The notes under the pieces: model-generated
What the model was told of the DNA's origin: nothing
Database searches by the model: none
Seen by the model: the letters and a program-made list of their open reading frames with translations, nothing else
Part shown: piece by piece, positions 12,502 through 23,338 of the stretch
Position numbering within the stretch: position 1 is the first letter of the stretch
Layout: the number at the start of each line of letters is the position of its first letter
Translations under genes and position numbers: made by a program
Source of the DNA: Marine Group II euryarchaeote MED-G35
Lineage (GTDB): Archaea; Thermoplasmatota; Poseidoniia; Poseidoniales; Thalassarchaeaceae
Reading direction: 5' to 3'
Length of the DNA stretch: 64,000 nt
NCBI GenBank assembly: GCA_002457155.1
Contig: NTJS01000005.1
Location: forward strand, 1,694 to 65,693

Positions 12502-13147
12502 TGTCGATTCTTACAACTCTTGTAGCGTATTCAATCAATGATTCGTCATGAGTGACGAAAACACAGGTTATTCCTTCTGCTTCACATGCCTTGACTAGTA
12601 CTTCCATGACTGCAGTAGAGGTCTTCGAGTCGAGGTTGCCGGTTAGTTCATCACCAAGTAGAAGGCGAGGAGTCTTGGCTAGGCTTCTTGCAATCGCTAC
12701 CCGCTGCTGCTGGCCTCCACTAATCTCCGCAGGGAATCTATGGATTTCATCGGCAAGCCCGACCATACCGAGTAGTTCCCTGGCCCTCCCCTCGTCCCTA
12801 CTCCCGGCTAGTTCCTGGATGAGCAGGATATTCTCCAGAACGGTTAGATCCTGTAGGAGATTGAAGAATTGGAAGACGTATCCTATGTTGTCTCTCCTGA
12901 ATTTTGTCATCTTCTCTGAGTCGTTTGAAGGCACTAATGATCCTGAGAATGAGTAGCTTCCCGAGGTTGGGCTATCCAACGCAGAGAGGCAGTTTAGAAG
13001 GGTGGTCTTCCCCGAACCAGAGGGCCCGAGAAGGATGATCCGCTCTCCTTCACTAACTTCCAGATCGATTCCGTCAAGGGCCTTCACAGTCCCGGATGGC
13101 ATCGCATAATGCCGTCTTATGTTGCGCATTTTCAGTATCTTTTCCAT
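12467..13147 (-). CDS. ABC transporter ATP-binding protein (MacB/LolD-like)
   Basis: Walker A (GPSGSGKTT), signature (ISGGQQQRVAIARSLA), Walker B (LLLGDELTGNLD) and H-loop (VTHD). Confidence 0.9.
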   Translation of the reverse strand: MEKILKMRNIRRHYAMPSGTVKALDGIDLEVSEGERIILLGPSGSGKTTLLNCLSALDSPTSGSYSFSGSLVPSNDSEKMTKFRRDNIGYVFQFFNLLQDLTVLENILLIQELAGSRDEGRARELLGMVGLADEIHRFPAEISGGQQQRVAIARSLAKTPRLLLGDELTGNLDSKTSTAVMEVLVKACEAEGITCVFVTHDESLIEYATRVVRIDSGKVLSDEIVE

Positions 13148-13200
13148 CTATCTCACCACAATCGGATTATTCCAAATTAGCATCCCTCTTTCGTGAGCCA

Positions 13201-15411
13201 TTACTCAGAGGCCCCGGCAAAGAATGACATTGACTCCTTGAACAACTCTTCCCTTCTGTGCCTCTTGTTGTCCCTTATCTTGAGCCACGTGAATCCTATT
13301 GCCAAGAGGATGATGAAAGGGATGAACGCCTCTGCGTGATATCGCTCCATCACCTCGATAATCCCGCGTGCCGTATAGGCCCAAGTGACCGATGCAGCAG
13401 TACCGCCAACGAAGCAGGCAGCGAGAACCCTCTGGAACCTCATTCGAGCTACCAGCCCTAGCATAGCCCCGACAAGAACTCCGCTGGCCATGAAAGGAAT
13501 CCATACGAATACTATCAGCCCCCAGAAGCCGTACTTGTCGATTCTTTTCCTGTTCTTTTGAGCCACATACTCCACCGAAGACAGAATGTCCCCCATGAAT
13601 GGGTTCTGCAGTAGGGCGCCCGGGATGCCATCCCGCTTAGCCACCATTGCCTCCCCGGCGTGTTCTTCTGAGCCCTGCTCAACCCGTCCGGCGACAGCCC
13701 TATCACCCAGTGTTGATTTCTCATTCCTAGCACTGACAACCAGTTCCCTTCCTTCTAGGAGATGTTCCAAGTCAGATCCCAGTTGGTCCCTTAGGTCTCC
13801 TTGTAGATGCTCGAAGGTGGGCTTGAACAGGAAATAAGCGAACTTCATGACTGGCCTGTAAATTACCCTGACGAAAACTGCATCCTCATCTGCCATAATT
13901 GCGGAGCCATAGTCCGCGACGTCGTGTTTCCTGAACCACCTTGACATGCTTTCTCTGAAAGCCTCCTCTAGTTTACCGAACTGCCCAATTGAGGAAAAGA
14001 AGACACTGTAGTCATCGGATAGTCTGACTTCGCCAATTTCGTCGAAATCAGGGGTTTCTCCCGACCCATCATTTGAGTCGGTACAAACTGTCTTTACCTG
14101 AAGCGGCCTCATCTCTCCGAAGATTCGGAACTCGTTCAGAATATCCTTGATTATGGTGCCTTTAACTTCGATTGGAGACATGATTGCCTTCCTTGTAGAG
14201 CTATATGGAAGAAAAACATCGACTGAGATTGCCCTATCCTGAACTTGGATGGATTCCAGATCGGGTTTGATATGGAGCCTCTTGCAGGCGTTTTCAACCG
14301 TCCTGGAGATTAGCCTTGTCATCTGTTCACTGGATAGCATATCGTCTGAATCCCTATGGTACAACCTATGCATCAAGGGATACTGGACACAAAGGAAGAA
14401 TACGGACATCCCCAGTGAGATCATTGCCATATACCATGGAGGAACTTCTGCATTCCCCCCAGTTAGCATCGCTGTCTCCCTCCCGCCAACCCACTCTGCT
14501 CCCATCAGAATCCAACCCCAGATACCCATGTCCTGGATTGTCATGCATGCACGAGTCTCCTCGTCGATCTTCTCCATCTTCCTATGTGTTTCTCCAGAAC
14601 CGAAAAGAGAGGAGGAAGTGCTAGTATGCAACTCTATTTCTAGATCCTTGTACGAAATATCAAGGAGGGGGTCATTCCCTTTCTCCGTAATTTCCTCTTC
14701 AGAAAGTTCTGACCATCCAGTTGAATTGTCCTCCGAATATATTACTGCGATTAGGATTTTGTAGTCCCCGTCATCCAATTCTTCCTTGCTCAATTCCACG
14801 GACAGGTCCCCAGAACCACCTACAGCAAGGGTGATTTCCGCGTCACCTTCGATTTCCCCCTCGGAGTCGAGTACTGACTCATTCCACACTAGGACCATTA
14901 TGGCAGAGGAAGAAGATGTTGGTACGTTGTTACTTTGAATTCTCAGATTATCTTCCTGGACCCAGGTCTTGACCCAAACCTCACCTCTCTTGTCAACACA
15001 ATCATTTGGGTCTAGTGGAGTTCCCGACAGGGAATCATCAATCGCGATGGAGTCACCGAGAATTAACCCCGATGAGGCGATTGTGACCGAGCCAAAGAAC
15101 ACCAAGCCAGCAATCAATCCGAAGACCAAAGTATAGTCATCGAATGTCTGGGGCACTACGGTGTTGTACAGAAAGCTCTGACCGGGATTCTCCCTCCTAT
15201 CCCTAATCCTGTCCAGTTCTACGTCAATCCTGTCATCGGCTTCAGAGCTAGAAGATGCTCCAGTGGAGTGTTTCTCCTCGGTTTCGAGGGTTGTTGACGG
15301 AAGGATGGCTTCGTCCATTGGAAGCAGACGAGCGGGTCGGGCGTATGTGATATTTTTCACGGAATGTAGTGTATCAATCTGATCAATGATCAGTCGGCAT
15401 TCGGAGATCAA
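13201..15411 (-). CDS. Large polytopic membrane protein; C-terminal COG2426 / small-multidrug-export-like domain
   Basis: Several TM helices. The C-terminal ~150 aa (FWGLIVFVWIPFMASGVLVGAMLGLVARM...FIPFIILLAIGFTWL) resemble the putative small multidrug export family. The rest is unassigned. The real start may be ATG 15318 (MDEAIL), because the ORF start lies only 17 nt from the divergent gene. Confidence 0.55.
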   Translation of the reverse strand: MISECRLIIDQIDTLHSVKNITYARPARLLPMDEAILPSTTLETEEKHSTGASSSSEADDRIDVELDRIRDRRENPGQSFLYNTVVPQTFDDYTLVFGLIAGLVFFGSVTIASSGLILGDSIAIDDSLSGTPLDPNDCVDKRGEVWVKTWVQEDNLRIQSNNVPTSSSSAIMVLVWNESVLDSEGEIEGDAEITLAVGGSGDLSVELSKEELDDGDYKILIAVIYSEDNSTGWSELSEEEITEKGNDPLLDISYKDLEIELHTSTSSSLFGSGETHRKMEKIDEETRACMTIQDMGIWGWILMGAEWVGGRETAMLTGGNAEVPPWYMAMISLGMSVFFLCVQYPLMHRLYHRDSDDMLSSEQMTRLISRTVENACKRLHIKPDLESIQVQDRAISVDVFLPYSSTRKAIMSPIEVKGTIIKDILNEFRIFGEMRPLQVKTVCTDSNDGSGETPDFDEIGEVRLSDDYSVFFSSIGQFGKLEEAFRESMSRWFRKHDVADYGSAIMADEDAVFVRVIYRPVMKFAYFLFKPTFEHLQGDLRDQLGSDLEHLLEGRELVVSARNEKSTLGDRAVAGRVEQGSEEHAGEAMVAKRDGIPGALLQNPFMGDILSSVEYVAQKNRKRIDKYGFWGLIVFVWIPFMASGVLVGAMLGLVARMRFQRVLAACFVGGTAASVTWAYTARGIIEVMERYHAEAFIPFIILLAIGFTWLKIRDNKRHRREELFKESMSFFAGASE

Positions 15412-15476
15412 TTTTGTAATATTAAACGATGGAGCGTGGAGGCAATTTTAATGTCCTCCTACTCCGTAGGAGGGGT

Positions 15477-18400
15477 ATGTCTAGTGTCAACGCGGTGGGG
15501 TCGCGTCTGTCTCTTCTTCTCGTTGGCCTGATGCTTCTCCCGAGTGCCGTGACAATCTTGACCTACCAAATTAGCAATGAGGATCTATTAGATGATGGCA
15601 GGATGGACTCGATTGATTTCGATCTAGAGACCCATTCCACTCTTGGAATCCCCGAATCTAGCGATCCTGCCCATGGATGGAAGGGCGACCCCGGTAATGT
15701 CGGAGAAGCGACTCTATTCTATCGGACTGCTACATATGTCCCGATAGGAGAGTGGGGGGCTATGACTGGAGATAGTTTCATGTCTGGTTGGTTCGTTTTG
15801 GCGCACGATTATCCAGTACCATCTGATTGGAAGTCTGAATTGAGCGAACTGGGGTTGGAATGTAGAACGTTCTACTCGCCACAGGGATTCCACTGCAAGG
15901 TTCCGAAGATGACACCAATGGAACTATCAGATTCTGGAGTAATGGGGGCGTTCCGACTTGACTCGACGGACAAGCTGGCTCCAGATGTCATACCCTTGGT
16001 CGAAGGGGGATCTAGTAACGCAGTAATGCAAGGGGAACGATATGTGATGAACGTCGTATTAGGCGGTTCTGACGAATTAGCAAACCTGATTTCTTCTGGA
16101 GTCGAGGTGGTCGACTACCGATCAGACAGGGTTGCGGAAGTCGTAGTTGACCAGAAGGATATGATTGGTCTCGTCAATCTTGATTTTGTCGAGTGGATTG
16201 AGCCGAAGTATCCATCTCAGTTTGATAACGAGGCAGCAGCAGGAATCATCGATGCTGATTGGGTCGGCGATGCAGCCACCATGGTTTCCTTCGGAGGTTC
16301 ACTCTCAGGGGCCGGGGTGATCGTTGGAGTGATGGACTCCGGCCTAGACAATGCAGTAGAATGCTCGAGTCTCTCCAATTGCAACAGCCTCAACAGTGGA
16401 ATACATGCAGACTTCGCTGGAAGAATCGCTGGAGTTGTTTCGTACACTTGCGGTGGTTGCACCGACGGCCCCGAGGATCAGCATGGCCATGGGACCCATG
16501 TTGCCGGATCTGTTCTGGGAGATGGTACGAACTCTCCCGATGGTTCTGACAATAGCGGAATGGCACCCGGTGCGCACCTGTTCATGCAATCCGTTCTGTG
16601 TGGCGGGTCCCTCTGCAACCCCTCATACGATGTCTTCTTCCCCGAGGCACACGATGCTGGTGCACGAGTCCACACCAATTCATGGGGATCTGGCCCTAGT
16701 CCCTCAAACTCTTGTGGCGGAAGTTGTTTGGCGTACTACAGCACTGCCGCGTTTGAGATAGATTCGGAAGCGAATTCCCTCACTGATTTAACGATTCTTT
16801 TCGCCATGGGGAATGATGCGATGGACTGCACTTACAACTCGTACGGACAGTCATCCTGCTATGGAGGGAAAGATGGGGAAATCAACCTAGGTGCAATGAA
16901 TCAACAGGCTACTGCAAAGAACATCCTTTCAGTGGGTGCCTCGGAAAATTATCGTGATACTTTGGCGCTATATGCTACGCCATACAGGAATTTCTGCAAC
17001 AGTGACCCTCCGTGCGATCTTCCCTTCACTAATGAGAAGTGGGGCACAGCTCCAATCAAGGATGACACGGCCAGTGACGATCCAGAGGGAATGGCCGCAT
17101 TCTCCAATAGGGGCCCTACCAATGATGGGAGGACCAAGCCCGATATAGTGGCACCCGGAACATGGATTCTGTCAACCAAATCCGAATTGCGATCTGCATC
17201 TGCTAACAATGACGTCGGGGAATATTACACTCACATGTTTGGAACTTCGATGGCTACCCCAATCACAGCAGGTTCGGTCGCCTTGGTAATAGAGTACCTG
17301 AATAACATTGGGGCTTACGATTGTAACCTTGCTAGCGACCCCTCGAGCGACCAATGCCCGGAGTCTGCTCTGATCAAGGCAATACTTGCATCTGGGGCAC
17401 ACGACATGGTTGGCCAATATACAACGGGGGGGAATTCCAATGGGAACGGGGCTGCGGAAAAGGCACCGAACAACCACGAAGGATGGGGCCGAGTTGACCT
17501 CCAACAACTGGTCTACTCTGGTTTCACAGAGGGAGTCGAGATCTCAACATCTGATAGCCATTCATTCAAACTCACAGTACCAGATACGGGGATCGAGGAT
17601 TTCCGAGTCGTTCTTTCATGGAATGACCCAGCAAACTCACCAAGTGCGGGACAGCAGTTGATCAACGATCTCGACATCCTCCTGAAGAGTCCCAGTGGGG
17701 CAGTTCAGACCTACACAAATGACGATTTGAACAATCTAGTGGGAATTTCACTTGGTGGGAATCCGGAAGTTGGCGATTGGGAAATCGTTGTCACTGGGGC
17801 AAACGTCCCGTCTGGGCCTCAGAAGTACTACTTGGCTTCCAGCGTAGGTGTCATCGAGGACATGAGGCATCCAGTATCAGATGGACTGAATGAGCCTGGT
17901 TTCCAATCCGGATCCATCTTCACCGAAACCACGATGTCTAGCGGTGGTGACCATCTCTGCGCGATTCTGGATGATTCCTCACTCCAGTGCTGGGGGAGCA
18001 ACTCGTTCGGACAATTGGGGGATGGGACAACCACCGACAGGCTTACGATGACCGAAGTGGGACTAGATGCAGCAAGGACCGCAGTTTCAATCAGCTCGGG
18101 CAAGGACCATACGTGCTCCATACTGGATAATGGCGACCTGCAATGCTGGGGGAGGAACAGCCATGGCCAACTAGGGGATGGAACTTCAGTTCATTCCAAT
18201 TCACCTGTTGATGTGAGTCTGTCCGGAGTACCCGTACAACTCTCCTCGGGGGATTGGCACAATTGCGCCATCCTGGACGATGCTAGCCTGCAATGCTGGG
18301 GGAAGAACGATCAGGGCCAGCTTGGGGATGGGACCAATGTCGATAGCAGCACCCCGGTATCCATATCCATCGGAGAAAACGTCCTAGCAGTCTCAACCGG

Positions 18401-21400
18401 ATCCAACCATACATGCGTGGTAACCAATTCCTGGGCTCTGAAATGCTGGGGCGACAACAGCAACGGGCAACTGGGAGTTGGGTCGACTTCCCCCTCCAAC
18501 AGCCCATCAACCGTCACTGTTGGTGGGAATGCCGTGGCAGTGTCCGCTGGAGGCTCACACACCTGCGCACTACTCGATGGTAACAATGTGAAATGCTGGG
18601 GCGACAACAGCAACGGGCAACTGGGAGATGGTGGGACAAACCAGCAGAACGACGCAGCAACCGTGGGAGTCTCCCTGACTGGAGCGATATCAATCGACTC
18701 TGGAGATAGCCATACCTGTGCGGTGAGTTCCAGCGATTCCCTCCACTGCTGGGGGGGCAGTGCAAATGGGCAAGTAGGAGACGGCAGTACTTCTGATCAA
18801 ATCACATCCCCCATTGAAATCGCACTAGGGCAGAATCTAGGTGCCCTGTCAGTCTCATCTGGGTCATCCTACACCTGTGTTGTTAGTAGCAATGACTTGG
18901 CCCGGTGCTGGGGTGGCCATGGTTCGGGAGCACTCTCCCTCGGAACCTCTCCTTCTGAGTTCACAATACCCATGTGGAGTTACATCAGCTCTTCGGAGAG
19001 GGATTGGAACGATAATGGAAACCTGAACATCTTCGAAGTCAGCGTTAGCAATGACGATGATGGCGATGGTTTTCCAAACTCTGTCGATAGCAATCCCAGC
19101 AATCCGACCGTGGCAGCTAGCTGCGCATCTGGGTCATTCGGCAGGTTCACCTGCAGGCAGGCAACTCCAGGATACTACGTAAGTGGAACAGGGAACACGG
19201 TGATGACTCCAGCGAGTCCGGGGAATTTCACGGACACCTTTGGTGCGACCTCACAAGTACAATGCAATGTAGGAAAGTTCCAGAGGCTATCTGGTCAGAC
19301 CTCATGCGATAATGCAGAGCCTGGCTATTACGTACCGGGAACCGGGGCTTATGAAGGAACACCTTGCCCTGCAGGGAAGTACAACGACCTATCGGGACAA
19401 AGTTCCGTAGATGCCTGCAAATGGGCTGAATCTGGTCATAGCGTTCCTGTGCTCACACAGGTGACATCAGGGGCTTCGCACTCCTGCGCAATCTTAGATG
19501 ATGGTTCGATTCGTTGCTGGGGAGAGAATAGCAACGGGCAGCTGGGTGATGGTTCGAGGACCCCGAGCCTAGAGCCGGAGAAGGCGTCCACGCCACTAGG
19601 GAGGAGAGCAGTTGGGGTTTCCGCGGGATCTTACCATACATGCTCCATGTTCGATGACGGTTCGGTACGCTGCTGGGGATCTAATGAATTCGGGCAACTG
19701 GGAGATGGGACAACCATAGAAAGGACTGCTCCCGTCACAGTCGACCTTGGGCAAGGAAAAAGCGCTCTAGGAATCTCATCCGGAGAGTCCCACACCTGTG
19801 CAGTCCTGAATGATCGTAGCGTCAAGTGCTGGGGCCTGAATAGCAACGGGCAGCTGGGTGATGGGACTACGACGGATAGGTCAAGCCCCATACTCACGGA
19901 CATGGGCGGGGAAGACGCTCTTCTGGTCTCCACGGGATCATACCACACCTGTGCCATCATGTCTGATAGGTCAGTGATGTGCTGGGGGGACAACTGGAAC
20001 GGGCAAATTGGGGATGGGACCAATGCAGATAGGACGACTCCGGTAGAGATTTCGATTCCAAGCAACAGTAGTGCGGTTTCCCTCGCTGCAGGAGCGTTGC
20101 ATACCTGTCTGGGTGTGAATGATGGGTCGCTGTTCTGCTGGGGCTACAACGCATACGGACAACTGGGGAACGGTGGCAATGCTAACTCCAACTCACCGAT
20201 GACAGTGCCACTGAGCGTAAACCAATTACTTTCATCTGTCCAAGTTGGACTATTCCACAGCTGCGCTCTTTTCGACTCCGGAGATGTTGCCTGCTGGGGT
20301 GACAACAGCAACGGGCAACTGGGCGATGGGTCGCAGAATGGGGTCACGGTCCCCACAGTAGTCAGCCTAGGCACGAACACGTCATCGATTTCAGTGGGCC
20401 AGAGGCATACTTGTGCCGTCCTCGATGACGCTAGCCTGAATTGCTGGGGGGCTAACGATGCCGGTCAGATAGGTGACGGAACCTCTTCCAACAGGAACAA
20501 CCCCACTGCTATCGACCTGGGTCATGGCTCAAAGGACCAGCTTCCGTGTGCACCGGGGTCATACCAGCCAAACCCATCCCAGACGACGTGCATCCTAGCA
20601 GACAGAGGGTTCATGGTCCCACAGTCTGGTCAGATTTCCCAGATCGGGTGTGTTGCTGGATACTACTCCAGCCTGAAGGGGCAACCTGCATGCACACCTG
20701 CGTCAAGAGGTTACTACGTCTCAGAGGCAGAATCCCCCTCACAGACCCCTTGCCCGAACGGCCAATCCACTTTGGAGGAGGCATCCACATTCTTCGACTT
20801 GTGCTTCAATGATTTCGATGGGGATGGAATACCAGATCAGTACGACACCGATGCAGACAATGACGGTGTGCCTAACGTAGATGACTACGACTGGCTGGAT
20901 CCCGACGTCTCCGCTGACTCGGATGGAGACAGGATTCCAGACAGCATCGACGTGGATGACGACAATGACGGCGTCAACGACACGGATGACCCATTCCCCA
21001 TGGACCAAGGGGAGTGGGAGGACAAAGACGGCGATGGCATTGGCGACAACGCCGATGAAGACGACGACGGAGACGGTAGGAGGGACATCTTCGACGTGTT
21101 CCCGAATGACGGGAACGAGTGGTCAGATGCCGATGGTGATGGCATTGGCGACAATTCCGATGCAGATGACGACAATGACGGGAGATGTGATGACACGACC
21201 TACTGGAGGCCCGACCTGGTCCCACCATCGAACAGCGGACCTAGCCAGGACGGGGACAGCATCCCCGACTGCTTCGCCTCTGCCAAGGGTGATGCCTTCC
21301 CATTCGATGCCAACGAGACGGATGACACGGATGGGGACAGCATAGGGAACAACGTGGATACCGACTGTGATGGCGATGGATGGCTCAATCCTGTGCCTTG

Positions 21401-21998
21401 TACCATGAACAGCGATGGAGTGAACGGAACCGACGCATTCCCACTAGATGACTGGCGATGGTCTGACTCCGACGGTGACGGCCATGCGGACGCGGACCAG
21501 GGTCCGAACTCAGATGTGTTCCCCGACGACCCGACGGAGTGGATGGACAGCGATCGGGATGGCGTTGGGAATAACGCAGATGAATGCCAATTCGTACCAG
21601 GGGTAAGTTCCAGCACTGAGGACTTCTTGGAACTCCTGAGCATACCCGGCAACGAACTTGGGTGCCCCTTACAGGCCCTCCTGGGAGATGAAATAATCGT
21701 GGACGAGATGGACTCCGACATAGGTGGATTTGATGATGCGGATGCCCCTGACTACGATGGTGATGACATTCCCGACTTGTTAGATCCTGACGACGACAAC
21801 GACGGCATTCCGGATCTGGAGGACGGCGTCCTTGGTGACGAGAAGTGGTCAAGAGACCCATTCAGGCCTTTCACCGCCGAGAATTGGGGCATCATTGCCA
21901 TCTCGATATCCTTCATAGGGATAATGGGATACAGGATGCTCGCTTGGAAGAACCGGGGCATCTCCAGCATCCGCTCAAAGAAGATCAGAATCCAATAA
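15477..21998 (+). CDS. Giant surface protein: signal peptide, subtilisin S8, 2 x seven-blade RCC1 propellers, Cys-rich ephrin-receptor-like modules, thrombospondin type 3 Ca-binding repeats, C-terminal TM anchor
   Basis: AGGAGG lies 4 nt upstream of ATG 15477 and the protein begins with a signal-like MSSVNAVGSRLSLLLVGLMLLPSAV. The ORF itself opens at 15429. Catalytic triad: Asp 16335-16337 (VMDSG), His 16488-16490 (HGTHVAG), Ser 17247-17249 (GTSMATP). There are 14 copies of CWGxNxxGQLGDG. Many DxDxDGxxD repeats. C-terminal TM WGIIAISISFIGIMGY followed by a basic tail. Confidence 0.85.
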   Translation: MSSVNAVGSRLSLLLVGLMLLPSAVTILTYQISNEDLLDDGRMDSIDFDLETHSTLGIPESSDPAHGWKGDPGNVGEATLFYRTATYVPIGEWGAMTGDSFMSGWFVLAHDYPVPSDWKSELSELGLECRTFYSPQGFHCKVPKMTPMELSDSGVMGAFRLDSTDKLAPDVIPLVEGGSSNAVMQGERYVMNVVLGGSDELANLISSGVEVVDYRSDRVAEVVVDQKDMIGLVNLDFVEWIEPKYPSQFDNEAAAGIIDADWVGDAATMVSFGGSLSGAGVIVGVMDSGLDNAVECSSLSNCNSLNSGIHADFAGRIAGVVSYTCGGCTDGPEDQHGHGTHVAGSVLGDGTNSPDGSDNSGMAPGAHLFMQSVLCGGSLCNPSYDVFFPEAHDAGARVHTNSWGSGPSPSNSCGGSCLAYYSTAAFEIDSEANSLTDLTILFAMGNDAMDCTYNSYGQSSCYGGKDGEINLGAMNQQATAKNILSVGASENYRDTLALYATPYRNFCNSDPPCDLPFTNEKWGTAPIKDDTASDDPEGMAAFSNRGPTNDGRTKPDIVAPGTWILSTKSELRSASANNDVGEYYTHMFGTSMATPITAGSVALVIEYLNNIGAYDCNLASDPSSDQCPESALIKAILASGAHDMVGQYTTGGNSNGNGAAEKAPNNHEGWGRVDLQQLVYSGFTEGVEISTSDSHSFKLTVPDTGIEDFRVVLSWNDPANSPSAGQQLINDLDILLKSPSGAVQTYTNDDLNNLVGISLGGNPEVGDWEIVVTGANVPSGPQKYYLASSVGVIEDMRHPVSDGLNEPGFQSGSIFTETTMSSGGDHLCAILDDSSLQCWGSNSFGQLGDGTTTDRLTMTEVGLDAARTAVSISSGKDHTCSILDNGDLQCWGRNSHGQLGDGTSVHSNSPVDVSLSGVPVQLSSGDWHNCAILDDASLQCWGKNDQGQLGDGTNVDSSTPVSISIGENVLAVSTGSNHTCVVTNSWALKCWGDNSNGQLGVGSTSPSNSPSTVTVGGNAVAVSAGGSHTCALLDGNNVKCWGDNSNGQLGDGGTNQQNDAATVGVSLTGAISIDSGDSHTCAVSSSDSLHCWGGSANGQVGDGSTSDQITSPIEIALGQNLGALSVSSGSSYTCVVSSNDLARCWGGHGSGALSLGTSPSEFTIPMWSYISSSERDWNDNGNLNIFEVSVSNDDDGDGFPNSVDSNPSNPTVAASCASGSFGRFTCRQATPGYYVSGTGNTVMTPASPGNFTDTFGATSQVQCNVGKFQRLSGQTSCDNAEPGYYVPGTGAYEGTPCPAGKYNDLSGQSSVDACKWAESGHSVPVLTQVTSGASHSCAILDDGSIRCWGENSNGQLGDGSRTPSLEPEKASTPLGRRAVGVSAGSYHTCSMFDDGSVRCWGSNEFGQLGDGTTIERTAPVTVDLGQGKSALGISSGESHTCAVLNDRSVKCWGLNSNGQLGDGTTTDRSSPILTDMGGEDALLVSTGSYHTCAIMSDRSVMCWGDNWNGQIGDGTNADRTTPVEISIPSNSSAVSLAAGALHTCLGVNDGSLFCWGYNAYGQLGNGGNANSNSPMTVPLSVNQLLSSVQVGLFHSCALFDSGDVACWGDNSNGQLGDGSQNGVTVPTVVSLGTNTSSISVGQRHTCAVLDDASLNCWGANDAGQIGDGTSSNRNNPTAIDLGHGSKDQLPCAPGSYQPNPSQTTCILADRGFMVPQSGQISQIGCVAGYYSSLKGQPACTPASRGYYVSEAESPSQTPCPNGQSTLEEASTFFDLCFNDFDGDGIPDQYDTDADNDGVPNVDDYDWLDPDVSADSDGDRIPDSIDVDDDNDGVNDTDDPFPMDQGEWEDKDGDGIGDNADEDDDGDGRRDIFDVFPNDGNEWSDADGDGIGDNSDADDDNDGRCDDTTYWRPDLVPPSNSGPSQDGDSIPDCFASAKGDAFPFDANETDDTDGDSIGNNVDTDCDGDGWLNPVPCTMNSDGVNGTDAFPLDDWRWSDSDGDGHADADQGPNSDVFPDDPTEWMDSDRDGVGNNADECQFVPGVSSSTEDFLELLSIPGNELGCPLQALLGDEIIVDEMDSDIGGFDDADAPDYDGDDIPDLLDPDDDNDGIPDLEDGVLGDEKWSRDPFRPFTAENWGIIAISISFIGIMGYRMLAWKNRGISSIRSKKIRIQ
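17938..18960 (+). repeat. RCC1-like propeller 1 (7 blades, ~150-bp period) inside the giant CDS
   Basis: Seven CWG(x)N(x)xGQ(L/V)G(D/V)G motifs. A 37-nt exact DNA repeat (aaatgctggggcgacaacagcaacgggcaactgggag) occurs at 18441-18477 and 18591-18627. Confidence 0.85.
19461..20530 (+). repeat. RCC1-like propeller 2 (7 blades) inside the giant CDS
   Basis: Seven further CWGxNxxGQ(L/I)G(D/N)G motifs, from CWGENSNGQLGDG to CWGANDAGQIGDG. Confidence 0.85.
20805..21830 (+). repeat. Thrombospondin type 3-like Asp-rich calcium-binding repeats (coding)
   Basis: Reiterated D-x-D-x-D-G-(I/V)-x-D-x-x-D units (DFDGDGIPDQYDTDADNDGVPNVDD, DKDGDGIGDNADEDDDGDG, DADGDGIGDNSDADDDNDG and others). Confidence 0.8.
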
Positions 21999-22083
21999 TG
22001 GTGCAGGGAGCAGGATTTGAACCTGCGAAGCACTACGCACAGCGACCTGAACGCTGCCCCTTTGACCACTCGGGTACCCCTGC
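21999..22083 (-). tRNA. tRNA-Leu (anticodon CAG), long variable arm, CCA encoded
   Basis: Hand-folded. Acceptor GCAGGGG/UCCCUGC, anticodon stem CAGCG/CGCUG, loop UUCAGGU, 13-nt variable arm, T arm GCAGG-UUCAAAU-CCUGC, discriminator A plus CCA. Length 85 nt. It starts the nucleotide after the giant CDS stop codon. Confidence 0.9.
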
Positions 22084-22138
22084 CAGAGGGTCACGTTTGA
22101 GCAATCAGACTTCAATGCAGCGCGATTAGCAGTATTGT

Positions 22139-22223
22139 TGGTGCAGGGGGCAGGATTTGAACCTGCGAAGCACTACGCACTGGGACCTAAACCCAGCCCC
22201 TTTGACCACTCGGGTACCCCTGC
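22139..22223 (-). tRNA. tRNA-Leu (anticodon UAG), long variable arm, CCA encoded
   Basis: Same fold as the neighbouring tRNA-Leu. Anticodon stem CUGGG/CCCAG, loop UUUAGGU. Identical to the CAG copy outside the anticodon arm except for one acceptor-stem base. Confidence 0.9.
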
Positions 22224-22315
22224 TATGTCTCGTGCGAATAATTACCCACCAAGAAGTCAACGCATCCGTGTCAATGGTCCCCATAGTGTCATAACAGGTC
22301 CTATGCGCCCCGCAG

Positions 22316-23338
22316 ATGGCAAAAATGGCACGAATAGGGATTCTTGGGCTCGGCAACTGGGGGACGGCTCTGGCACTAGTGTGGTGTAAAGACGGTCACA
22401 ACGTCCTAGGATGGACAGTCGAACAGGAGGTGTATGAGTCAATGATGACCGTTCACGAGAACAAGAAGTACCTGCCAGGATACCAAATTCCAGAGTTGGA
22501 TTGCACGATGGAGATCTCCGATGTCACAGAGAGTTGCGAGATTCTGGTGCTAGCTCTCCCGAGCTCGGTCATCCTAGAGGTTGTGGACATGGTAATTCCA
22601 AACCTCAGACCATCTCACCTACTAGTCGACCTGGCAAAGGGACTAGCACCTGCAGACGAGGGCGGTTCCGGGATGATTTCAGATGCAATAGAGAGGAGGC
22701 TCTCGGATGCAGGCATGTCCAATCAGGTAGTGGTGATGACCGGGCCTACGATAGCCCCAGAAGTCGCACGTGGCGTGATCACGAACGCACTGGTGGCTTG
22801 CCATGACATGGGGGTGGCGGAGAGGGTGGCCGAACGCCTCTCTACGGACTCCCTGATTCTAACGCCAGCAGAGGACCCGGTCGGAGCCGAACTCTGGGGG
22901 GCGTACAAGAACTGCGTAGCACTAGCATGCGGACTCGTTGATGGCCTCAAGGACACAATAGGGGGTGACAACCTCAAGGCTGCTCTGGTCCTCTCTGGAT
23001 ATAGCGAGGGAATCGAGCTGCTCGAGAAGATGGGCGCTGACCCGAAGACGGCATTCGGACCGGCTGGAATTGGGGATCTGTACGTGACGGCAACCAGCCC
23101 ACGGAGCAGAAACCGGACGCTGGGGGAGAAGCTGGGTTCGGGGAAGAGCCTGGAGGAGTCACTCGAAGAGATGCACATGGTTGCAGAGGGAGTCAGAGCA
23201 ACCAGGATGTTCATTAACAGGGCTGAGAGGATTGGGCATCCGACTCCCTTCCTGCGCACCTTGGGGGGCCTACTGGATGGTGGGATCGAGATTGAGGATG
23301 CAGTCAGGAGAATGGTCGGTGCGTACGAAGTGGGATGA
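22316..23338 (+). CDS. gpsA: NAD(P)H-dependent sn-glycerol-3-phosphate dehydrogenase (bacterial GpsA type)
   Basis: N-terminal Rossmann motif IGILGLGNWGTALA. Also GPTIAPEVARG and NRTLGEKLGSGKSLEESLEEMHMVAEGV, which are typical GpsA blocks. Confidence 0.85.
   Translation: MAKMARIGILGLGNWGTALALVWCKDGHNVLGWTVEQEVYESMMTVHENKKYLPGYQIPELDCTMEISDVTESCEILVLALPSSVILEVVDMVIPNLRPSHLLVDLAKGLAPADEGGSGMISDAIERRLSDAGMSNQVVVMTGPTIAPEVARGVITNALVACHDMGVAERVAERLSTDSLILTPAEDPVGAELWGAYKNCVALACGLVDGLKDTIGGDNLKAALVLSGYSEGIELLEKMGADPKTAFGPAGIGDLYVTATSPRSRNRTLGEKLGSGKSLEESLEEMHMVAEGVRATRMFINRAERIGHPTPFLRTLGGLLDGGIEIEDAVRRMVGAYEVG

What the first reader, a model, noticed from the sequence alone, without database searches (positions are those of the whole stretch)
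15477..21998. 2.2-kaa surface protein combining an S8 protease with two complete RCC1 propellers, ephrin-receptor-like Cys-rich modules and a long TSP3 calcium-binding stalk
- An intact subtilisin triad is present (Asp 16335, His 16488, Ser 17247).
- It is followed by 7 + 7 RCC1 blades (17938-18960 and 19461-20530).
- Each propeller is followed by a Cys-rich segment with a CxxGxYxxxxGxxxCxxCxxGxY pattern (about 19110-19440 and 20540-20800).
- About 1 kb of DxDxDG repeats and a C-terminal TM anchor complete the protein.
- All the non-catalytic modules are best known from eukaryotic proteins.
- The mirror-like duplication (propeller plus Cys module, twice) suggests an internal segmental duplication.
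- The likely function is a protease or adhesin for particle or protein capture at the cell surface. The role of RCC1 propellers outside the cell is not understood.
Basis: partly seen in the sequence, partly recalled or inferred. Interest (0 to 1): 0.6.

Follow-up and report, generated by a model that had tools for sequence, protein, structure and literature searches.

The report
Membrane-anchored giant subtilase of MGIIb archaea
This is a real, intact gene for a roughly 2,170-residue cell-surface protease of marine Group IIb archaea, with a subtilisin-type enzyme held on a stalk of two propellers, cysteine-rich spacers and calcium-binding repeats; the build is unusual, but it is one lineage's version of a surface protease found across these archaea.

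Summary
One uninterrupted ORF (start at ATG 15477, stop codon ending at 21998) encodes these parts in order:
- a signal/TM segment;
- two propeptide-like units;
- a 7-blade RCC1 propeller plus an ephrin-receptor-like Cys module, present twice;
- 13 DxDxDG repeats;
- a C-terminal TM anchor.

It is not an assembly artefact. The DNA repeats are at most 79% identical, and full-length orthologues were found in 17 other genomes.

The organism is a Thalassarchaeaceae (MGIIb) MAG.

The two propeller cassettes are old (37% identical) and are not resolved as sisters. Similar cassettes occur in other giant proteins.

The same protease head occurs in 94 of 99 sampled genomes of the sister family (probably MGIIa). 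The seven relatives I read there, six from that family and one from another genus of this family, have no propellers, only a longer TSP3 stalk. The cassettes were probably inserted in one MGIIb subclade.

All 62 Cys sit in 31 local pairs, with one pair per blade.

The most likely function is calcium-dependent extracellular proteolysis at the cell surface. This is inferred, not shown.

This scan has already reported the same family on other genomes.

Verdict: a new variant of a known kind, of moderate interest.

The parts
15417..15426 (+). AT-rich TATA-like box (TAATATTAAA) upstream of the gene; a putative archaeal promoter element
   Evidence: Read directly from the sequence. That it acts as a promoter is inference only.
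15469..15473 (+). GGAGG Shine-Dalgarno-like motif, ending 3 nt before ATG 15477
   Evidence: Sequence. It supports Met17 as the true start.
15477..21998 (+). Coding sequence of the giant surface subtilase (2173 aa from Met17; the stop codon is 21996-21998). Residue numbers in this report count from the upstream ATG at 15429 (protein P0001).
   Evidence: ORF list and translation. 43 of 52 orthologues start at Met17.
15477..15572 (+). N-terminal signal peptide or signal anchor (residues 17-48; hydrophobic core 26-46)
   Evidence: Hydropathy scan. Conserved in orthologues.
15573..16298 (+). N-terminal domain (residues 49-290): two beta-alpha-beta-beta-alpha-beta-like units, probably a tandem subtilase propeptide (I9-like). 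No Pfam match.
   Evidence: AF2 secondary structure is confident for residues 94-259 (pLDDT 70-92). Foldseek aligns 655-658 columns to ProN-Tk-SP (3afg), which includes a propeptide. No Pfam hit. Invariant Cys145/Cys156.
16299..17498 (+). S8 subtilase catalytic domain (residues 291-690) with seven short Cys-pair loop insertions
   Evidence: Pfam Peptidase_S8 1.6e-35, residues 294-687. KP-43 (1wmd) E 6.2e-48. Foldseek TMt 0.73.
16335..16337 (+). Catalytic Asp303 (GVMDSGLD)
   Evidence: 52/52; aligned to DTGLD of KP-43.
16488..16490 (+). Catalytic His354 (HGTHVAGS)
   Evidence: (52/52).
16812..16814 (+). Oxyanion-hole Asn462 (LFAMGND)
   Evidence: 52/52. Aligned to LFAAGNE of KP-43.
17247..17249 (+). 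Catalytic Ser607 (GTSMATP)
   Evidence: (52/52).
17499..17873 (+). All-beta domain after the catalytic domain (residues 691-815), homologous to the C-terminal beta-barrel domain of KP-43/SubHal.
   Evidence: The phmmer alignment runs through KP-43 residues 197-431. AF2 gives strands at pLDDT 73-90. No Pfam family.
17934..18962 (+). RCC1-like propeller 1 (residues 836-1178): 7 blades, each with an invariant C-x9-C pair
   Evidence: Blade signatures. Pfam. AF2 pLDDT 88.6 for the piece, with 7 four-stranded blades. UVR8 TMt 0.87. Cys 52/52.
18963..19115 (+). Linker with one DxDxDG calcium-loop motif (residues 1179-1229); low model confidence
   Evidence: Motif at 1209. pLDDT 46-68. A similar linker (SERD..ND.DG) follows the propeller of the paralogue on contig C1.
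19116..19433 (+). Cys-rich module 1 (residues 1230-1335): three two-Cys ephrin-receptor-like (GCC2_GCC3) units
   Evidence: Pfam Ephrin_rec_like 24.2 bits against cutoff 23.1. 6 Cys invariant, 52/52. AF2 pLDDT 78-94, short hairpins.
19461..20528 (+). RCC1-like propeller 2 (residues 1345-1700): 7 blades, each with a C-x9-C pair
   Evidence: 37% identical to cassette 1 and colinear with it.
20538..20807 (+). Cys-rich module 2 (residues 1704-1793): three two-Cys ephrin-receptor-like units
   Evidence: Pfam Ephrin_rec_like 35.0 bits and 2.1e-08 on the whole protein. Weak match to the mastigoneme protein Mst1 (8tx1), E 0.053.
20808..21833 (+). Acidic TSP3-like calcium-binding repeat stalk (residues 1794-2135): 12 DxDxDG motifs and three Cys pairs
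   Evidence: Motif scan. Pfam TSP_3 27.7 bits on the piece, 5 stretches. Weak COMP and thrombospondin-2 matches.
21885..21995 (+). C-terminal transmembrane anchor (residues 2154-2173) and basic cytoplasmic tail (KNRGISSIRSKKIRIQ)
   Evidence: Hydropathy. Conserved in orthologues (consensus). No PGF-CTERM or LPXTG family hit in NCBIfam.

Best explanation
**What it is.** The gene encodes a type I membrane protein of a marine Group IIb archaeon (Thalassarchaeaceae).

**Proposed topology (inferred).**
- A Sec-type N-terminal signal takes the chain out of the cell.
- The C-terminal helix, with its basic tail inside, keeps it on the membrane.
- The acidic TSP3-like repeats bind Ca2+ and form an extended stalk.
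- Two disulfide-stapled RCC1 propellers, each followed by a rigid Cys-rich rod module, sit above the stalk.
- A KP-43-type subtilase with its beta domain forms the distal head.
- The two N-terminal propeptide-like units fold and inhibit the protease, and are then cleaved off autocatalytically.

**Proposed function (inferred).** The mature enzyme cuts dissolved or particle-bound proteins next to the cell, so the peptides can be taken up by this proteolytic heterotroph. The propellers act as conserved binding or positioning modules, not as fast-evolving adhesins.

**Shown here:** the ORF, the domains, an intact catalytic apparatus, conservation, and the Cys pairing pattern.

**Inferred:** topology, Ca2+ binding, disulfides, autoprocessing, substrate and physiological role.

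**Evolution.** The head is shared with relatives that have no propellers. They occur in the sister family (probably MGIIa) and in one other genus of this family. The two propeller-plus-Cys cassettes were most likely inserted between head and stalk in the ancestor of two genera of this family.
For: **Intact gene**
- Intact 2189-aa frame.
- S8, RCC1/WD40_RLD, Ephrin_rec_like and TSP_3 Pfam matches.

**Catalytic competence**
- Triad and oxyanion Asn are invariant in 52/52 orthologues and align to KP-43.
- KP-43/SubHal are the closest solved relatives over both the catalytic and the beta domain (E 6e-48; 33% identity and TMt 0.73).

**Extracellular location**
- N-terminal hydrophobic signal and C-terminal TM with a basic tail.
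- All 62 Cys fall into 31 local pairs. Blade and module Cys are invariant, and the variable ones appear and vanish as pairs (467/477 in 34/34, 632/643 in 35/35, 1980/1991 in 27/27).
- In the confident AF2 model (pLDDT 88.6), the two Cys of every blade are cross-strand partners by strand register.
- pI 4.05.

**Constraint on the propellers**
- Propellers are more conserved than the catalytic domain (0.68-0.69 against 0.58 mean identity to the query) and nearly free of indels.

**Not an artefact**
- No tandem arrays, and DNA repeats are at most 79% identical.
- About 55 protein clusters of full-length or partial orthologues carry this architecture; 51 are between 2050 and 2260 aa.
- Frames of 1503-2219 aa were found in 17 other genomes of two genera of this family; the shorter frames lie on fragmented assemblies.
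- Synteny is conserved in those two genera.

**Lineage theme**
- The 1.2-Mb MAG has 10 S8 genes. Six of them combine an N-terminal hydrophobic segment with a TM segment at or near the C-terminus.
- The head is present in 94/99 sampled genomes of the sister family. In the seven propeller-less frames I read (six from that family, one from another genus of this one) it is followed by 21-31 TSP3 repeats and a TM anchor. It is their best match in this genome (425-459 bits against 187 for the next).

**Literature**
- All MGII MAGs encode 1-4 extracellular S8 subtilisins, thought to degrade external peptides (PMC6864105).
- A proteolytic lifestyle and widespread 'thrombospondin' genes are reported for Poseidoniales (PMC6461757).
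Against: - There are no experimental data of any kind: no activity, localisation, expression or ligand.
- The AF2 model of the head is poor overall (mean pLDDT 60.3; the catalytic core is mostly below 50). Head structure therefore rests on sequence homology to KP-43.
- Disulfides are inferred from Cys pairing and strand register. I had no coordinates, so they were not measured.
- The N-domain has no Pfam match, so its propeptide role is inferred from fold pattern alone.
- TSP_3 is only marginally above its cutoff.
- Sequons are depleted (7 against about 23 expected). This is unexpected if the protein is a heavily glycosylated archaeal surface protein.
- The relatives that lack propellers sit in a different genomic context (tRNA-Gly downstream). 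Strict orthology, and hence the direction of the domain change, is not proven.
- This MAG is 68% complete.
Confidence: 0.65

Rival explanations
1. It is primarily an adhesin. The propellers, Cys modules and TSP3 repeats attach the cell to particles or phytoplankton surfaces. The protease domain serves mainly for self-processing or for regulated release (shedding) of the attachment, not for nutrition.
For: - TSP3-bearing genes in Poseidoniales have been read as adhesion genes (PMC6461757).
- Non-catalytic modules make up about 60% of the protein.
- RCC1 propellers are protein-binding platforms: BLIP-II, UVR8 and RCC1 are the fold matches.
Against: - The propellers are highly conserved and of fixed length, unlike typical variable adhesins.
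- The head is of the degradative KP-43 type with a complete active site conserved in 52/52.
- The same head occurs on propeller-less stalks in the seven such relatives read, six of them from the sister family.
- MGIIb populations are reported to be mostly free-living (PMC6864105).
Confidence: 0.15
2. It is a maturation or sheddase protease for the cell's own envelope. It would process the other giant surface proteins or S-layer components encoded in the same genome, and the propellers would dock it onto those partners.
For: - The genome encodes several other giant surface proteins, some sharing the RCC1 + Cys-rich + TSP3 modules: a 6093-aa frame on contig C6, a 1041-aa frame on C1, and the 2258-aa and 1335-aa ORFs in the window.
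- The high conservation of the propellers fits a conserved endogenous partner.
- The architecture S8 + beta (P-like) domain + Cys-rich repeats loosely recalls proprotein convertases. Furin and Kex2 appear among the fold hits, but weakly (TMt about 0.4).
Against: - The closest relatives are broad-specificity alkaline proteases (KP-43, SubHal), not convertases.
- No conserved operon partner was found beyond a divergent membrane protein.
- Most genera of this family sampled lack the gene yet presumably have envelopes.
Confidence: 0.1
3. It is an antagonistic or predatory surface weapon. The propellers recognise the surface of other microbes (for example phytoplankton), and the protease damages their envelope proteins to release nutrients.
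For: - MGII abundance tracks phytoplankton blooms (abstract of PMC8821943).
- Giant multidomain surface proteins are implicated in attacking other cells in predatory bacteria (bioRxiv 10.1101/2023.11.21.568195).
Against: - There is no toxin, lytic or cell-wall-degrading domain in the protein.
- There is no evidence of cell-cell association for MGIIb.
- The idea is purely speculative.
Confidence: 0.05
4. It is an assembly artefact (collapsed or expanded repeats) or a pseudo-protease.
For: - The protein is repeat-rich (14 blades, 13 Ca motifs) and comes from a short-read MAG that is 68% complete.
Against: - DNA copies of the repeats are only 60-79% identical, and TRF finds no arrays.
- Length and domain order are reproduced in 51 other full-length protein clusters and in 17 other genomes, some on contigs longer than 100 kb.
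- Triad and oxyanion Asn are invariant and align to KP-43.
Confidence: 0.02

Closest known systems
KP-43 (Bacillus sp. KSM-KP43 alkaline serine protease, PDB 1wmd) and SubHal (Bacillus halmapalus, 5fax)
   Same: - The S8 catalytic domain and the following C-terminal beta domain are homologous over the whole length (E 6.2e-48 and 2.3e-47; 33% identity; Foldseek TMt 0.73).
- Asp, His, Ser and the oxyanion Asn align.
   Different: - KP-43 and SubHal are small (about 434 aa) soluble secreted enzymes.
- This protein adds a tandem propeptide-like N-domain, seven Cys-pair loop insertions in the catalytic domain, about 1,370 residues of propellers, Cys modules and Ca-binding stalk, and a membrane anchor.
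Tk-SP subtilisin-like protease of Thermococcus kodakarensis (PDB 3afg, 9ues)
   Same: - An archaeal subtilase with an N-propeptide and a C-terminal beta-jelly-roll domain.
- Sequence E 2.9e-17; Foldseek E 5e-21 over 658 columns that include the propeptide.
   Different: - Secreted and soluble, with no propellers, Cys modules, TSP3 stalk or TM anchor.
- Lower similarity than KP-43.
Propeller-less surface subtilases with the same head (found in 94 of 99 sampled genomes of the sister family, probably MGIIa/Poseidoniaceae, and in one other genus of this family); uncharacterised
   Same: - The same N-domain + S8 + beta-domain head (37-45% identity over about 740 residues).
- A TSP3-type Ca-binding stalk and a C-terminal TM anchor.
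- Reciprocal best matches.
   Different: - No RCC1 propellers or ephrin-like modules.
- The stalk is much longer (21-31 canonical Cys-containing TSP3 repeats).
- Different genomic neighbourhood: tRNA-Gly rather than tRNA-Leu/GpsA downstream.
Bacterial cell-envelope proteinases (lactocepin PrtP/CEP, streptococcal C5a peptidase ScpA, SpyCEP)
   Same: It works like them: a large multidomain S8 protease tethered to the cell surface through a C-terminal anchor, with non-catalytic spacer or binding domains. There are weak sequence hits around the catalytic Ser (E about 1e-5; NF040553).
   Different: - No PA domain, Fn3-type domains or LPXTG sortase signal.
- The anchor is a TM helix.
- The catalytic domain is much closer to KP-43.
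Plant CRINKLY4 (ACR4/PpCR4) ectodomain (PDB 7a0j; bioRxiv 10.1101/2020.08.10.245050)
   Same: - An extracellular 7-bladed RCC1-related propeller with one Cys pair (disulfide) per blade at the ...C... / CWG positions.
- Directly followed by a disulfide-rich TNFR/ephrin-like module and a TM helix.
- phmmer E 4.7e-08 to ACR4.
   Different: - CRINKLY4 blades are about 39 aa, with an N-terminal strand filling the pore.
- Here the blades are about 50 aa, and the best fold matches are UVR8, RCC1 and HERC2. ACR4 is not in the Foldseek top 50.
- No kinase domain.
- The Cys module has 6 Cys in three units, not 12.
BLIP-II (Streptomyces exfoliatus beta-lactamase inhibitor protein II, PDB 1jtd, 3qhy)
   Same: A secreted prokaryotic 7-bladed RCC1-like propeller that binds another protein on its face. 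Foldseek TMt 0.69-0.72.
   Different: Stand-alone and small (about 270 aa), with shorter blades. According to the CRINKLY4 paper it lacks the per-blade disulfides.

Membership tests
Peptidase family S8 (subtilases) | Match to the Peptidase_S8 profile above the curated cutoff | tested here: met
   PF00082, 123.3 bits against cutoff 21.8, full profile 1-288.
Peptidase family S8 (subtilases) | Catalytic triad in the order Asp-His-Ser within the D[ST]G, HGTH and GTSM[AS]xP motifs, plus the oxyanion Asn | tested here: met
   D303, H354, N462 and S607 are invariant in 52/52 orthologues and align to KP-43.
Peptidase family S8 (subtilases) | Proteolytic activity | not testable with these tools
   Needs expression and an enzyme assay.
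KP-43/SubHal-type subtilases | Catalytic domain followed by a homologous C-terminal beta-barrel domain | tested here: met
   The phmmer alignment runs to KP-43 residue 431 of 434. AF2 shows an all-beta domain at residues 699-814. Foldseek top hit is 1wmd.
KP-43/SubHal-type subtilases | Small soluble secreted enzyme (about 43 kDa mature) | tested here: not met
   A 2173-aa protein with a C-terminal TM anchor and about 1,370 extra residues.
RCC1-like domain (RLD) propellers | Seven RCC1 repeats closing into a 7-bladed propeller | tested here: met
   7 + 7 blade signatures. PF25390, 464.8 bits against cutoff 150. AF2 model of cassette 1 has pLDDT 88.6 with seven 4-stranded blades. TMt 0.87 to UVR8. 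Propeller 2 was not modelled.
RCC1-like domain (RLD) propellers | Nucleotide-exchange or chromatin-binding function of eukaryotic RCC1 | not tested
   Not expected for an extracellular domain. No Ran-type GTPase context.
Ephrin_rec_like / GCC2_GCC3 Cys-rich repeats (PF07699) | Profile match above the curated cutoff | tested here: met
   Module 1 scores 24.2 and module 2 scores 35.0 bits against 23.1 when scanned as pieces. Only module 2 is found on the whole protein.
   The units have two Cys each (C-x2-G-x-[YF]...C...G[YF][YF]V), and no CxxC is present in either module.
Thrombospondin type 3 repeats (PF02412) | Profile match above the curated cutoff | tested here: inconclusive
   17.9 bits (below 25) on the whole protein. 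27.7 bits (above 25, five stretches) on the C-terminal piece. PDB matches to COMP and TSP-2 are weak, E 0.09-0.9.
Thrombospondin type 3 repeats (PF02412) | DxDxDGxxDxxD calcium-binding motif repeated in tandem | tested here: met
   13 motifs, 12 of them between residues 1795 and 2130.
Thrombospondin type 3 repeats (PF02412) | Calcium binding | not testable with these tools
   Needs biochemistry.
CRINKLY4-type ectodomain | Extracellular 7-blade propeller with one disulfide per blade, followed by a Cys-rich domain | tested here: inconclusive
   A Cys pair is invariant in all 14 blades and cross-strand in the model by strand register. A Cys module follows each propeller. The disulfides themselves were not measured.
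CRINKLY4-type ectodomain | Short (about 39 aa) crinkly repeats with a pore-filling N-terminal strand, and a cytoplasmic kinase | tested here: not met
   Blades are about 50 aa. The fold is closest to UVR8 and RCC1, and ACR4 matches by sequence at only 35 bits. The cytoplasmic tail is 16 residues, with no kinase.
Gram-positive cell-envelope proteinases (PrtP/ScpA type) | LPXTG sortase anchor and a PA-domain insertion | tested here: not met
   There is no LPXTG. NF040553 scores 36.5 bits against cutoff 1400. There is no PA domain in Pfam.
Archaeosortase substrates (PGF-CTERM) | A PGF-CTERM tripartite sorting signal at the C-terminus | tested here: not met
   There is no such NCBIfam or Pfam hit. 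The C-terminus reads ...WGIIAISISFIGIMGYRMLAWKNRG..., with no PGF.

The most novel reading that the evidence does not exclude
The unit '7-blade RCC1 propeller with one disulfide per blade + ephrin/TNFR-like Cys module' may be a mobile extracellular cassette of marine archaea and bacteria.
- Here it was inserted twice into a surface protease.
- It also occurs in arrays in other giant proteins.
- The blade Cys pair was all-or-none per protein across the 65 other RCC1 giants examined: 1399 of 1669 blades carry it, and six proteins carry none.

This prokaryotic cassette could be the evolutionary source of the plant CRINKLY4 ectodomain. Its authors described the blade disulfides as unique to CRINKLY4.

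In this protein the cassettes could act as specific substrate-capture modules that feed the protease.
Probability: 0.12. Interest if true: 0.55.

Novelty: new variant of a known kind. Interest (0 to 1): 0.38.

Why it matters
Marine Group II archaea are among the most abundant archaea in the surface ocean. They are uncultured and are thought to live on proteins, yet their extracellular proteases are known only as MEROPS counts.

This gene gives a concrete, conserved and testable candidate for how an MGIIb cell digests protein outside the cell while keeping the enzyme, and therefore the products, at its own surface.

The comparison with relatives that have the same head but no propellers shows how such enzymes are rebuilt by swapping extracellular cassettes.

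The disulfide-stapled RCC1 propeller plus Cys-rich module is a widespread prokaryotic extracellular unit. Its only studied look-alike is the plant receptor CRINKLY4, so a ligand found for either could inform the other.

It is not a new kind of system, and this scan has reported the family before.

Tried and rejected
- **Assembly collapse or expansion: rejected.** TRF finds no arrays, and direct DNA repeats are 60-79% identical. Length and order are reproduced in many independent assemblies.
- **Pseudo-protease: rejected**.
- **Recent internal duplication: rejected.** The cassettes are 37% identical at protein level and share only blade-motif patches of DNA. U1 and U2 are separate 100/100 clades and are not sisters.
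- **Cassette extraction by HMM or regex: abandoned.** Defining cassette units in other proteins with an HMM or a regex gave fuzzy boundaries, because the blades are repeats. I used BLAST-HSP-defined segments for the tree instead. Nine rows of that tree have long branches, so deep nodes are unreliable.
- **Sorting signals: none found.** No PGF-CTERM, LPXTG or lipobox-type signal.
- **Pfam on two regions: no match.** The N-domain (41-293) gave no family. The beta domain (688-837) gave no significant family; the only hit was far below its cutoff.
- **AF2 head model: weak.** Mean pLDDT is 60. Only the N-domain and the beta domain are usable.
- **Coordinates: not available.** Model coordinates are not exposed to the Python box. 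I could not measure S-S distances and used strand register instead.
- **Literature: architecture not described.** Searches for 'Marine Group II' + RCC1, Poseidoniales + subtilisin, and MGII + thrombospondin found only general statements on S8 peptidases and 'thrombospondin genes'.
- **ACR4 Cys comparison: not possible.** I could not view the ACR4 alignment, so the coincidence of Cys positions rests on the 'CGV/CWG' description in PMC4617170.

Full report
**1. Observation**

The window has one long open frame at 15429..21998 on the + strand (2189 aa; translation, kept as P0001). Residue numbers below count from 15429.

43 of 52 full-length orthologues begin at that column. A GGAGG motif lies at 15469-15473, and an AT-rich TATA-like box lies at 15417-15426.

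- Asp303 at 16335 (GVMDSGLD)
- His354 at 16488 (HGTHVAGS)
- Ser607 at 17247 (GTSMATP)

Pfam on the whole protein gives:

| Family | Result |
|---|---|
| Peptidase_S8 | 1.6e-35, residues 294-687 |
| WD40_RLD | 3e-139 |
| RCC1 | 1e-99 |
| Ephrin_rec_like | 2.1e-08, residues 1744-1792 |
| TSP_3 | 17.9 bits, below its cutoff of 25 |

Scanned as pieces, both Cys modules pass the Ephrin_rec_like cutoff (24.2 and 35.0 bits against 23.1). The C-terminal piece passes TSP_3 (27.7 against 25, five stretches).

A motif scan finds:
- 14 RCC1 blades (7 + 7);
- 13 DxDxDG motifs;
- an N-terminal hydrophobic segment (residues 26-46);
- a C-terminal TM segment (2154-2173) followed by a basic tail.

Each module is three two-Cys units.

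**2. Not an artefact and not a pseudo-enzyme**

TRF finds no tandem arrays in the gene. The direct DNA repeat families, which correspond to blades and Ca motifs, are only 60-79% identical. Short-read collapse is therefore unlikely.

A homology search returned about 55 clusters carrying this S8 + RCC1 architecture, down to about 46% identity. 51 of them are between 2050 and 2260 aa. Many lie on contigs longer than 50 kb, and NCBI names some of them 'S8 family serine peptidase [Candidatus Thalassarchaeaceae archaeon]'.

In an alignment of 52 full-length sequences, the triad and the oxyanion Asn462 are invariant. A phmmer alignment to the solved protease KP-43 puts all four residues in register.

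**3.

*The head.* It is closest to KP-43 (1wmd, E 6.2e-48) and SubHal (5fax). The alignment runs through their C-terminal beta-barrel domain. Foldseek agrees (1wmd first, TMt 0.73, 33% identity; then Tk-SP with its propeptide). Residues 691-815 are therefore a KP-43-type beta domain.

*The head model.* The AF2 model is weak overall (pLDDT 60.3). It is confident for residues 94-259, which form two beta-alpha-beta-beta-alpha-beta-like units, and for the beta domain. I read the N-domain as a tandem propeptide. That is an inference from fold pattern. Pfam finds nothing there.

*Cassette 1.* Residues 830-1339 were modelled at pLDDT 88.6 and pTM 0.84, with seven four-stranded blades followed by short hairpins. 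Its best fold matches are UVR8 (TMt 0.87, rmsd about 2 Å), RCC1, RPGR and HERC2. The secreted bacterial propeller BLIP-II scores TMt about 0.70.

*Module 2 and the stalk.*
- Cys module 2 weakly matches the ephrin-receptor-like repeats of the algal mastigoneme protein Mst1 (E 0.053).
- The stalk weakly matches COMP and thrombospondin-2 type 3 repeats.

**4. Cysteines**

All 62 Cys fall into 31 sequence-local pairs. Every blade has a C-x9-C pair (H-x-C ... C-W-G).
- The 28 blade Cys and the 12 Cys-module Cys are invariant or nearly so (51-52 of 52).
- Cys in the catalytic-domain loop inserts and in the stalk appear and disappear together: 467/477 in 34 and 34 sequences, 632/643 in 35 and 35, 1980/1991 in 27 and 27.

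In the cassette model, the two Cys of each of the seven blades lie in adjacent antiparallel strands. Their positions sum to the same value as the strand ends, so they are cross-strand partners. I had no coordinates, so disulfides are inferred, not measured.

The pattern is not special to this protein. In 65 other large RCC1 proteins from the homology search, 1399 of 1669 blades carry the pair. The distribution is all-or-none per protein, and six proteins have none.

The plant CRINKLY4 ectodomain is the one studied case of an extracellular 7-blade propeller with a disulfide per blade followed by a Cys-rich domain (bioRxiv 10.1101/2020.08.10.245050). Its repeats have 'CGV' and 'CWG' sub-motifs (PMC4617170). 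ACR4 matches cassette 1 at E 4.7e-08, far behind UVR8, RCC1 and HERC2. This is therefore an organisational parallel, not shown membership.

**5. The 'internal duplication'**

Cassette 1 (832-1338) and cassette 2 (1341-1795) align colinearly at 37% identity (E 4e-99). At DNA level only short blade-motif patches match.

Each cassette scores higher against cassettes in other, protease-less giant proteins (353 and 352 bits) than the two score against each other (295 bits).

I built a maximum-likelihood tree of 56 cassette segments: 24 from this family and 32 BLAST-defined segments from other proteins. Nine rows have long branches. In this tree, U1 and U2 each form a 100/100 clade with parallel internal topologies. 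They sit in an unresolved comb with foreign cassettes.

Both cassettes therefore predate the family's radiation. Whether they arose by in-gene duplication or arrived as a pair is open.

A paralogue in the same MAG (contig C1, 1041 aa) has one propeller, the same SERD..ND.DG linker, a long GCC2_GCC3 array and a C-terminal TM.

**6. Distribution and evolution**

The MAG is 1.2 Mb and 67.6% complete. It has 10 S8 genes, and six of them combine an N-terminal hydrophobic segment with a TM segment at or near the C-terminus. RCC1 propellers occur in two other proteins of the MAG.

I searched 201 genomes of the order, this MAG included, with the head (residues 41-837):

| Group | Genomes with a match |
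|---|---|
| Own genus | 13 of 14 |
| Two other genera of the same family | 4 of 4 and 2 of 2 |
| The other ten genera of the family | 0 |
| Sister family (by the NCBI names, probably MGIIa/Poseidoniaceae) | 94 of 99, about 40-45% identity over about 740 residues |

- I read seven of the propeller-less frames, six from the sister family and one from the 2-of-2 genus. All have the head followed directly by 21-31 TSP3 repeats, which carry Cys pairs in the three frames I printed, and a C-terminal TM. None has an RCC1 blade.
- The one frame read from the 4-of-4 genus has both propellers.
- The propeller-less proteins' best match in this MAG is this gene (401-459 bits, against 175-190 for the next paralogue).
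- Synteny (a divergent 736-aa membrane protein upstream; tRNA-Leu and GpsA downstream) is kept in the two propeller-bearing genera. The propeller-less loci do not share these neighbours, and five of the six sister-family loci have tRNA-Gly(TCC) next to the gene.

The simplest reading is that the cassettes were inserted between head and stalk in one MGIIb subclade, and the stalk was shortened.

**7. Constraint**

| Domain | Mean identity to the query across orthologues |
|---|---|
| Propellers | 0.69 and 0.68 |
| Cys modules | 0.63 and 0.67 |
| Beta domain | 0.66 |
| S8 catalytic domain | 0.58 |
| N-domain | 0.52 |

The propellers and Cys modules have almost no indels. They are conserved functional parts, not variable adhesin tips.

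**8. Mechanism (inferred)**

I propose a type I membrane protein. The Ca-binding acidic stalk projects two disulfide-stapled propellers with rigid Cys-rich spacers, and a distal KP-43-type protease. The protease is activated by removal of the propeptide-like N-domain.

It would degrade extracellular protein close to the cell. This fits the reported proteolytic lifestyle of Poseidoniales and the extracellular S8 peptidases counted in all MGII MAGs (PMC6461757, PMC6864105).

Rivals are listed separately: an adhesin-first role, envelope maturation, an antagonistic role, and artefact.

**9. Comparison and novelty**

- It works like bacterial cell-envelope proteinases, but it fails their defining features (no LPXTG, no PA domain).
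- Its head is a member of the KP-43/SubHal-like subtilases.
- The RCC1, ephrin-like and TSP3 modules are common prokaryotic extracellular modules (bioRxiv 10.1101/2023.11.21.568195).
- I found no paper describing this architecture.
- The proteins are in public databases under automatic names.
- This scan has already followed up the same family on at least four other genomes, with the same conclusion.

I therefore rate it a new variant of a known kind, of moderate interest.

Noticed in passing
window 57980-61987 (+): A second large S8 protease in the same window (1335 aa from the first start codon). It has an N-terminal hydrophobic segment, 14 TSP3-like DxDxDG motifs, 16 Cys and a TM segment about 60-75 residues before the C-terminus, followed by a longer tail. 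It has no RCC1. It shows that 'S8 head + Ca stalk + TM anchor' is a repeated design in this genome.
   Followed up: partly
window 30481-37257 (-): A 2258-aa ORF whose only Pfam signal is a weak FG-GAP-like repeat. It is probably another giant surface protein.
   Followed up: no
own genome G000: contig C6 (RCC1 matches from about 13028 to 21709, 6093-aa frame) and contig C1 (74410-75498, 1041-aa frame): Two further RCC1-propeller proteins.
- The 6093-aa frame has 85 Cys and 21 TSP3-like motifs.
- The 1041-aa protein is signal + one propeller + the same SERD..ND.DG linker + a long array of GCC2_GCC3 units + a C-terminal TM.

The propeller-plus-Cys cassette is therefore reused in this genome.
   Followed up: partly
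65 RCC1 giants (P0057-P0121 and the two own-genome paralogues): The blade Cys pair (C ... CWG) is all-or-none per protein. 1399 of 1669 blades have it, and six proteins have none. The CRINKLY4 structure paper calls per-blade disulfides unique to CRINKLY4 propellers. These prokaryotic proteins suggest otherwise, if the pairs are oxidised.
   Followed up: partly
window 15477-21998 (the protein itself): N-glycosylation sequons (N-x-S/T) are depleted: 7 observed against about 23 expected from composition. This is unexpected for an archaeal surface protein. I did not test it against shuffles or orthologues.
   Followed up: no
window 13201-15411 (-) and 21999-23338: The neighbours are conserved around the propeller-bearing orthologues. 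The divergent 736-aa membrane protein upstream is kept in the own genus and in a second genus. The downstream tRNA-Leu(TAG) and GpsA were seen only at the second-genus locus L010; the own-genus loci end before the 3' end of the gene. None of these neighbours is found at the propeller-less loci, and five of the six sister-family loci have tRNA-Gly(TCC) next to the gene instead.
   Followed up: partly
L007 (G003:C1, a single-contig sister-family genome), inside the orthologous gene: A run of 7 X residues (masked N bases) lies just before the catalytic GTSM motif of the orthologue. It is probably an operator mask or an assembly gap, not biology.
   Followed up: no
window 18439-18664: Blades 4 and 5 of propeller 1 share an identical 39-nt stretch (TGAAATGCTGGGGCGACAACAGCAACGGGCAACTGGGAG) inside a repeat that is 79% identical overall. 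This may be local gene conversion between neighbouring blades, or just codon bias on the CWGDNSNGQLG motif.
   Followed up: no
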